Shown here: positions 6,098 to 6,181 of the stretch, in pieces
Layout: every line of letters begins with the position of its first letter
How positions within the stretch are numbered: the first letter of the stretch is position 1
Origin: Trypanosoma brucei
Taxonomy: Eukaryota
Assembly: GCA_000002445.1 (NCBI GenBank)
Contig: CP000067.1
Span: forward strand, 320,001-384,000
Reading direction: 5' to 3'
Length of the DNA: 64,000 nucleotides
Position numbers and translations under genes: made by a program
Notes under the pieces: generated by a model
Databases searched by the model: none
The model's input: only the letters and a program-made list of their open reading frames with translations
What the model was told of the DNA's origin: nothing

Positions 6098-6181
6098 TCC
6101 TTCCGGCCGGAATCGAACCAGCGACCCTGTGATACCCGCATACTCTACAGTCACATGCTCTACCAATTGAGCTACAGAAGG
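6098..6181 (-). tRNA. tRNA-Tyr (anticodon GUA) containing the 11-nt intron 3' of the anticodon
   Basis: Reverse complement: CCTTCTG TA GCTC AATTGGTA GAGC A TGTGA CTGTAG[11-nt intron ~AGTATGCGGGT]A TCACA GGGTC GCTGG TTCGATT CCGGC CGGAAGG A. All stems pair and the anticodon is GTA. The gene is 84 nt, i.e. 73 nt plus an 11-nt intron. T5 follows on the minus strand (6092-6096). Confidence 0.9.

What the first reader, a model, noticed from the sequence alone, without database searches (positions are those of the whole stretch)
6098..6181. Intron-containing tRNA-Tyr(GUA) with 11-nt intron
tRNA-Tyr is the only intron-containing tRNA in T. brucei. Its 11-nt intron undergoes non-canonical editing before splicing, and the gene is single-copy and essential. 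In the fold the intron sits between positions 37 and 38.
Basis: partly seen in the sequence, partly recalled or inferred. Interest (0 to 1): 0.5.

Follow-up and report, generated by a model that had tools for sequence, protein, structure and literature searches.

The report
Known T. brucei intron-containing tRNA-Tyr gene

Summary
Window 6098-6181, minus strand, is a tRNA-Tyr(GUA) gene. It scores 57.8 bits against the Rfam tRNA model (threshold 29). ARAGORN in intron mode calls an 11-nt intron, AGUAUGCGGGU, between positions 37 and 38. Removing it leaves a standard 73-nt tRNA. A and B boxes and a T5 terminator are present.

The locus is Trypanosoma brucei chromosome 4, gene Tb927.4.1219. Published T. 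brucei probes for the mature tRNA, 3' exon, 5' leader and 3' trailer match the window exactly. Neighbouring ORFs are 100% identical to TREU927 Tb927.4.1230 and PEX1.

The published probe for the edited intron differs from the genomic intron at two bases, window 6141 (A to U) and 6137 (G to A). These are the reported kinds of edit. Three Trypanozoon genomes carry the same unedited DNA.

From the literature only: it is the sole intron-containing tRNA, it is single-copy, splicing is essential, and editing is needed before cleavage. Only one copy occurs in this window.

The gene sits beside the known divergent tRNA-Thr(CGU)/U6 snRNA pair.

Verdict: observation confirmed, interpretation supported, already known. 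Interest is low.

The parts
6098..6181 (-). tRNA-Tyr(GUA) gene, an 84-nt precursor body (Tb927.4.1219 in the literature)
   Evidence: Rfam RF00005 57.8 bits; ARAGORN; exact match to the published T. brucei tRNA-Tyr probes
6145..6181 (-). 5' exon (tRNA positions 1-37), with the GUA anticodon at 6146-6148
   Evidence: ARAGORN -i; coordinates computed
6134..6144 (-). 11-nt intron AGUAUGCGGGU between positions 37 and 38. Bases 6141 (A) and 6137 (G) are the two positions that differ in the published 'edited intron' probe (A->U, G->A).
   Evidence: ARAGORN -i; probe comparison; identical in three Trypanozoon genomes
6098..6133 (-). 3' exon (tRNA positions 38-73)
   Evidence: exact match to the 3'-exon probe AACCAGCGACCCTGTGAT
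6161..6174 (-). Internal Pol III A box (TAGCTCAATTGGTA), with the extra base noted for Tyr-GTA in trypanosomatids
   Evidence: Read from the sequence; PMC2695483 describes the extra Box A nucleotide for Tyr-GTA
6109..6119 (-). Internal Pol III B box (GGTTCGATTCC)
   Evidence: Read from the sequence
6092..6096 (-). T5 run, the Pol III terminator, one base after the discriminator A73
   Evidence: Read from the sequence; the published trailer probe matches 6078-6098 exactly
6182..6202 (-). 5' leader region covered by the published T. brucei leader probe
   Evidence: Exact match of CTGACTGCCGCAGTAGTCGGG
5958..6029 (+). Neighbouring tRNA-Thr(CGU), convergent with tRNA-Tyr (68 bp between the 3' ends) and divergent from U6
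   Evidence: Rfam 65.2 bits; ARAGORN
5763..5860 (-). U6 snRNA gene. Rfam aligns 5763-5858; the sequence reads GGAGCCC from 5860. Its upstream divergent tRNA-Thr supplies the A/B-box promoter according to the literature.
   Evidence: Rfam RF00026 62.3 bits; sequence; PMC4950102 summarising Nakaar et al. 1994 and 1997

Best explanation
This is the nuclear gene for the single tyrosine tRNA of Trypanosoma brucei (Tb927.4.1219, chromosome 4).

Shown here from the sequence: RNA polymerase III elements are in place, namely internal A and B boxes and a T5 run one base past the discriminator. The precursor carries an 11-nt intron between positions 37 and 38. In the predicted precursor fold, the anticodon loop pairs with the intron (C32-G46 to A36-U42). 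The 5' cleavage site then lies in a 5-nt loop. The 3' cleavage site lies in a 3-nt bulge (G47 U48 A49), directly after the anticodon-intron pair C32-G46. This is the canonical eukaryotic pre-tRNA geometry.

From the literature, not tested here: the intron is first edited in the nucleus by non-canonical G-to-A and A-to-U changes. Only the edited precursor is cleaved by the cytoplasmic tRNA splicing endonuclease. The exons are joined by TbTrl1. The spliced tRNA returns to the nucleus for queuosine-34 modification and is then re-exported. Because the gene is single-copy, splicing is essential.
For: tRNA identity, anticodon and intron. The spliced product is a normal 73-nt tRNA-Tyr. Predicted anticodon-intron helix with the 3' site in a 3-nt bulge. 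A box, B box and T5 terminator. T. brucei identity: exact matches to four published probes, including the non-conserved leader and trailer (probes in PMC10351884, PMC4931112). Also the PEX1 ORF is identical to TREU927 XP_844275.1 and Tb927.4.1230 is 100% identical over 262 aa. The two mismatches to the published 'edited intron' probe are an A->U and a G->A in RNA sense, the edit types reported in PMC11408192. The genomic intron is identical and unedited in the window, T. equiperdum OVI and T. b. equiperdum IVM-t1, so the probe difference is not a polymorphism among these three genomes. Sole intron-containing tRNA, single copy and essential splicing: PMC4931112, PMC10351884, PMC2695483.
Against: Nothing contradicts it. 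The limits are these. Editing, splicing, essentiality and genome-wide copy number cannot be seen in DNA of one window and rest on the literature. The primary editing paper (Rubio et al. 2013) was not available, so the edited positions are inferred from a probe sequence and secondary reviews; the reviews mention G-to-A changes in the plural, so there may be more edited sites than the two the probe shows. Thermodynamic folding of the unedited and the probe-implied edited precursor gives the same minimum-energy topology and the same energy, -28.8 kcal/mol. Simple folding therefore does not explain why editing is required. The window could come from another very close Trypanozoon isolate rather than TREU927 itself.
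Confidence: 0.97

Rival explanations
1. The 11 nt are not an intron but part of the mature RNA, for example an enlarged anticodon loop or a class II-like extra arm.
For: For environmental tRNA-Tyr homologues with a 9-nt insert, ARAGORN without intron mode preferred a tRNA-Leu(tag) fold that keeps the insert. Alternative folds of this kind of sequence can therefore be scored.
Against: For the window sequence ARAGORN calls tRNA-Tyr(gta) both with and without intron mode. Infernal places the insert in the anticodon loop. Removing the 11 nt gives a perfect 73-nt cloverleaf. Published northern blots and sequencing show a mature species of about 75 nt and a separate intron-containing precursor (PMC10351884, PMC4931112).
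Confidence: 0.01
2. The locus is a non-functional tRNA-Tyr pseudogene or a second copy, and the functional gene lies elsewhere.
For: Copy number outside the 64-kb window could not be measured with these tools.
Against: The cloverleaf, A and B boxes and terminator are intact. The leader and trailer are identical to the probes used for the expressed T. brucei precursor. The gene is conserved base for base in three genomes while the flanks vary. The literature counts one Tyr-GTA gene in T. brucei (PMC2695483 Table 1; PMC4931112).
Confidence: 0.01
3. The window is from a close relative (T. b. gambiense, T. evansi or T. equiperdum) and not T. b. brucei, so T. brucei-specific statements transfer only by homology.
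For: The PEX1 protein is identical in TREU927 and T. equiperdum OVI. OVI DNA is 99.6% identical to the window.
Against: The window is not identical to OVI (99.6%) or IVM-t1 (98.55%), but two ORFs are identical to the TREU927 proteins. The leader probe designed on the reference matches the window, while IVM-t1 has a T/C difference there.
Confidence: 0.1

Closest known systems
Trypanosoma brucei tRNA-Tyr gene Tb927.4.1219 (Schneider et al. 1993; Rubio et al. 2013; Lopes et al. 2016)
   Same: It is the same gene. The mature, 3'-exon, leader and trailer probe sequences match exactly, the intron is 11 nt at 37/38, and the chromosome 4 neighbours Tb927.4.1230 and PEX1 are the same.
   Different: No difference was detected. 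The published intron probe differs at two bases because it targets the edited RNA (PMC10351884).
Canonical eukaryotic nuclear tRNA-Tyr introns (yeast, human, plants), cleaved by SEN/TSEN at 37/38
   Same: The position is 37/38. There is an anticodon-intron helix, with the 3' site in a 3-nt bulge after the pair between position 32 and intron position -3. tRNA-Tyr is the most widely conserved intron-bearing tRNA family (PMC13578239).
   Different: At 11 nt it is very short, against 11-13 nt in trypanosomatids generally (PMC4931112). It is the only tRNA intron in the genome. The literature says it needs non-canonical editing before cleavage, which is not known for other eukaryotes.
Leishmania major and T. 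cruzi tRNA-Tyr genes
   Same: In each species they are the only intron-containing tRNAs, with the intron at 37/38 (PMC2695483, PMC12204681).
   Different: L. major has 3 copies with an 11-nt intron. T. cruzi has 2 copies with a 13-nt, sequence-divergent intron. T. brucei has 1 copy. The sequences of those species were not fetched here.
Archaeal bulge-helix-bulge tRNA introns
   Same: Both are removed by a protein endonuclease, and the 3' site lies in a 3-nt bulge.
   Different: The predicted 5' site lies in a 5-nt hairpin loop, not in a second 3-nt bulge separated by a 4-bp helix. The strict motif is absent.

Membership tests
Eukaryotic nuclear tRNA-Tyr(GUA) with canonical intron | Cloverleaf that scores above the tRNA covariance-model threshold | tested here: met
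   RF00005 57.8 bits against a gathering score of 29, model positions 1-71
Eukaryotic nuclear tRNA-Tyr(GUA) with canonical intron | GUA anticodon at positions 34-36 | tested here: met
   ARAGORN, anticodon gta at position 34; window 6146-6148
Eukaryotic nuclear tRNA-Tyr(GUA) with canonical intron | Insert between positions 37 and 38 whose removal yields a standard tRNA | tested here: met
   ARAGORN -i reports i(38,11), insertion position 37-38; the spliced 73-nt sequence is again called tRNA-Tyr
Eukaryotic nuclear tRNA-Tyr(GUA) with canonical intron | Anticodon-intron helix with the 3' splice site in a 3-nt bulge next to the pair between position 32 and intron position -3 | tested here: met
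   The MFE and centroid structures pair C32-G46 to A36-U42 and bulge G47 U48 A49. This is a prediction only.
Eukaryotic nuclear tRNA-Tyr(GUA) with canonical intron | Internal A and B boxes and an oligo-T terminator (Pol III gene) | tested here: met
   TAGCTCAATTGGTA at 6161-6174, GGTTCGATTCC at 6109-6119, T5 at 6092-6096
Eukaryotic nuclear tRNA-Tyr(GUA) with canonical intron | Intron actually removed by the SEN endonuclease and Trl1 ligase in vivo | not testable with these tools
   Literature only: PMC4931112, PMC10351884
T. brucei Tb927.4.1219 locus | Non-conserved flanks identical to the published T. brucei leader and trailer | tested here: met
   The 21-nt leader and 21-nt trailer probes match with 0 mismatches at 6182-6202 and 6078-6098
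T. brucei Tb927.4.1219 locus | Chromosome 4 neighbourhood of TREU927 | tested here: met
   ORF 9308-10303(-) contains Tb927.4.1230 at 100% over 262 aa. ORF 11823-14558(-) is the exact sequence of TREU927 PEX1 XP_844275.1.
T. brucei Tb927.4.1219 locus | Single copy in the genome and the only intron-containing tRNA | not testable with these tools
   One copy in the 64-kb window, and the other tRNA in the window (Thr-CGU) has no intron. The genome-wide count comes from PMC2695483 Table 1, PMC4931112 and PMC10351884.
T. brucei Tb927.4.1219 locus | Non-canonical intron editing (G->A, A->U) before splicing | not testable with these tools
   Indirect only. The published edited-intron probe differs from the genomic sequence at 6141 (A->U) and 6137 (G->A). 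The genomic intron is identical in three genomes. Reviews: PMC11408192, PMC8311961.
Archaeal-type bulge-helix-bulge intron | Two 3-nt bulges separated by a 4-bp helix | tested here: not met
   Only the 3' site is in a 3-nt bulge. The 5' site is in a 5-nt hairpin loop closed by a 5-bp helix.
Self-splicing group I tRNA intron | A ribozyme core of hundreds of nucleotides | tested here: not met
   The insert is 11 nt. No group I intron match appeared in the Rfam scans.

The most novel reading that the evidence does not exclude
The tRNA-Tyr gene lies 68 bp from, and convergent with, the tRNA-Thr whose A/B boxes drive the U6 snRNA gene. The tRNA-Tyr boxes might therefore contribute to a shared Pol III hub. 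That would resemble L. major U2, where box B of a second upstream tRNA gene also contributes (PMC4950102). It would link expression of the only spliced tRNA with that of a core trans-splicing snRNA. Nothing here tests this.
Probability: 0.05. Interest if true: 0.3.

Novelty: already known. Interest (0 to 1): 0.1.

Why it matters
The locus is biologically important. It is the only tRNA-Tyr gene of a human and animal pathogen, and its splicing and unusual intron editing are essential. All of this has been published since 1993 and 2013. The value of this check is that the first-stage call is accurate to the base, and that the window can be placed on T. brucei chromosome 4 at Tb927.4.1219-1230.

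Tried and rejected
1. Rubio et al. 2013 (Mol Cell) and Lopes et al. 2015 (WIREs RNA) could not be read. The edited positions were therefore inferred from probe sequences and reviews.

2. I folded the unedited precursor and the A41U, G45A and double-edited versions. The MFE topology is the same in all, and the energies lie between -28.1 and -29.5 kcal/mol. Simple thermodynamics gives no explanation for the editing requirement.

3. I scanned metagenome contigs with the T. brucei anticodon-arm and T-arm pattern, hoping for free-living kinetoplastid relatives. The 16 hits are not kinetoplastids. They are dense small-RNA gene islands with canonical full-length U1, U2, U4, U5 and U6, plus 5S and 7SL RNA. 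They say nothing about conservation of the T. brucei intron.

4. An apparent 28-bp difference between the window and T. equiperdum OVI in the U6/tRNA-Thr spacer turned out to be an assembly gap of Ns.

5. The verdict does not depend on them, and the literature already gives their intron lengths.

6. I considered an archaeal BHB intron, a group I intron, a pseudogene and a retained insert. All were rejected; see the membership tests and rival explanations.

Full report
**Observation**

The stretch 6098-6181 is a tRNA gene on the minus strand. The Rfam tRNA covariance model matches 6181->6098 over its full length at 57.8 bits (gathering score 29, E = 7e-10), with an insertion in the anticodon loop. 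ARAGORN calls tRNA-Tyr(gta) at 6097-6181. Run in intron mode on the excised locus, it reports an 11-nt intron 'agtatgcgggt' with 'Intron Insertion Position(37-38): tgtag-Intron-atcac'. With those 11 nt deleted, the remaining 73 nt are again called tRNA-Tyr(gta) with a standard cloverleaf.

In window coordinates on the minus strand:

| Part | Coordinates |
|---|---|
| 5' exon | 6145-6181 |
| Anticodon | 6146-6148 |
| Intron | 6134-6144 |
| 3' exon | 6098-6133 |

A 36-nt 5'-exon pattern occurs once in the window with up to three mismatches allowed, and never in 100 shuffles. An A follows both cleavage sites, so shifting both sites by one base gives the same mature RNA. The 37/38 assignment follows convention and the predicted structure.

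**Anatomy**

The gene has the internal Pol III promoter: an A box TAGCTCAATTGGTA (6161-6174) and a B box GGTTCGATTCC (6109-6119). A T5 run (6092-6096) lies one base beyond the discriminator.

The minimum-energy and centroid folds of the 84-nt precursor keep the acceptor, D and T arms and extend the anticodon stem with an anticodon-intron helix, C32-G46 to A36-U42. This places the 5' cleavage site in a 5-nt loop. It places the 3' cleavage site in a 3-nt bulge, G47 U48 A49, directly after the C32-G46 pair. That is the canonical eukaryotic pre-tRNA geometry and not a strict archaeal bulge-helix-bulge. The whole-molecule z-score against shuffles is only -1.47, which is unremarkable for a tRNA.

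**Organism and locus**

Oligonucleotide probes published for T. brucei tRNA-Tyr match the window with zero mismatches. They are:
- mature: CCTTCCGGCCGGAATCGAACCAGCGAC
- 3' exon: AACCAGCGACCCTGTGAT
- 5' leader: CTGACTGCCGCAGTAGTCGGG
- 3' trailer: CGTTTGTGGGCGTGAAAAAGT

The sequences come from PMC10351884 and PMC4931112. The leader (6182-6202) and trailer (6078-6098) lie in non-conserved flanks.

The ORF at 11823-14558(-) is the exact sequence of T. b. brucei TREU927 PEX1, XP_844275.1. The ORF at 9308-10303(-) contains Tb927.4.1230 at 100% identity over 262 residues. PMC10351884 gives the tRNA-Tyr gene identifier as Tb927.4.1219, which fits this position.

At the DNA level the window is 99.6% identical to T. 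equiperdum OVI and 98.55% identical to T. b. equiperdum IVM-t1. The most likely source is TREU927 or something equally close. All long ORFs from 8 to 64 kb are on the minus strand, as expected for a trypanosomatid polycistronic array.

**Editing**

DNA cannot show editing, but one indirect observation fits. The intron probe that the authors describe as specific for the edited intron (GATACCTGCAAACTCTAC; PMC10351884) differs from the genomic sequence at exactly two bases. In RNA sense these are A41->U (window 6141) and G45->A (window 6137).

These are the kinds of change reported for this intron, G-to-A transitions and an A-to-U transversion, which are required for cleavage by the splicing endonuclease (PMC11408192, PMC8311961 and PMC4931112, all citing Rubio et al. 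2013). The reviews speak of G-to-A changes in the plural, so there may be more edited sites than the two the probe shows. The genomic gene, intron included, is identical in the window, OVI and IVM-t1, while the flanks carry substitutions. The probe difference is therefore not a polymorphism among these three genomes.

Folding the unedited, singly edited and doubly edited precursors gives the same topology and energies between -28.1 and -29.5 kcal/mol. Simple thermodynamics does not explain why editing is needed.

**Claims that rest on the literature only**

- It is a single-copy gene (PMC4931112). [quoted passage not shown]
- Splicing is essential for viability. The lethality of TbTrl1 knock-down is rescued by an intronless tRNA-Tyr (PMC4931112).
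- Splicing is cytoplasmic and is followed by retrograde nuclear import for queuosine-34 (PMC8311961, PMC10351884).

In this window I could verify only that there is one copy and that the other tRNA present has no intron.

**Context**

Sixty-eight bp from the 3' end of tRNA-Tyr, and convergent with it, lies tRNA-Thr(CGU) at 5958-6029 (+). Divergent from that lies a U6 snRNA gene at 5763-5858/5860 (-). The tRNA-Thr A box starts about 105-107 bp upstream of the U6 5' end. This agrees with the roughly 104-bp spacing reported for trypanosome snRNA genes, whose promoters are the A and B boxes of an upstream divergent tRNA gene (PMC4950102, summarising Nakaar et al. 1994 and 1997). The same Tyr/Thr/U6 arrangement is present in IVM-t1 and OVI. 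No further known RNA family was found in 1-8200 at a relaxed threshold.

**Comparison, novelty and verdict**

This is not a relative of a known element. It is the known element itself. All defining features of a canonical eukaryotic intron-containing tRNA-Tyr that can be tested in silico were met, and the locus-identity tests were met. The strict archaeal BHB motif and group I intron alternatives were tested and not met.

The finding is already known, so interest is low (0.1). The only non-excluded novel reading I can offer is that the tRNA-Tyr boxes contribute to a shared Pol III hub with tRNA-Thr and U6. I give that about 5% probability.

Noticed in passing
window 5763-5860 (-) and 5958-6029 (+): A U6 snRNA gene (Rfam 62.3 bits) lies divergent from tRNA-Thr(CGU), about 97-99 bp upstream. 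This is the known trypanosome arrangement in which the tRNA A/B boxes act as the U6 promoter. tRNA-Thr(CGU) is also single-copy in T. brucei according to PMC2695483 Table 1.
   Followed up: partly
L002-L017 (metagenome contigs, e.g. L008 1-5554, L012 1-5056, L017 1-7424, L013 1-7143): Environmental marine and lake contigs carry extremely dense small-RNA gene islands, with up to 45 tRNA genes in 5.5 kb on both strands. They also hold tRNA-Sec, 5S rRNA, 7SL RNA and canonical full-length U1, U2, U4, U5 and U6. Their tRNA-Tyr(GUA) has the same body as the T. brucei one over the stretches read (from the D arm onward), but a fully compensated different acceptor stem and only a 9-nt insert after G37 (atgtctgcg, cagagtgcg, ctgagtgcg or atttctgcg). 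ARAGORN without intron mode miscalls it tRNA-Leu(tag). The source organism is unknown. It is a eukaryote and, judging by its snRNAs, not a kinetoplastid.
   Followed up: partly
window 1-2445 versus L001 16467-20783: Colinearity with T. b. equiperdum IVM-t1 stops at about window 2445. IVM-t1 has a tRNA-Pro(CGG) 89 bp beyond the break, whereas the window has no tRNA there. T. equiperdum OVI stays colinear with the window to at least 1683. This is a strain-specific rearrangement, an insertion or an assembly difference.
   Followed up: partly
window 9308-10303 (-): The ORF is 331 aa here and in T. b. gambiense and T. equiperdum annotations. In TREU927 it is annotated as 262 aa (Tb927.4.1230), starting at an internal Met. 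This is probably a start-codon annotation difference in a 'T. brucei spp.-specific protein'.
   Followed up: no
L018 about 18648-18657: The T. equiperdum OVI assembly has a run of N (an assembly gap) in the spacer between tRNA-Thr and U6. It briefly looked like a 28-bp deletion in the U6 promoter spacer.
   Followed up: yes
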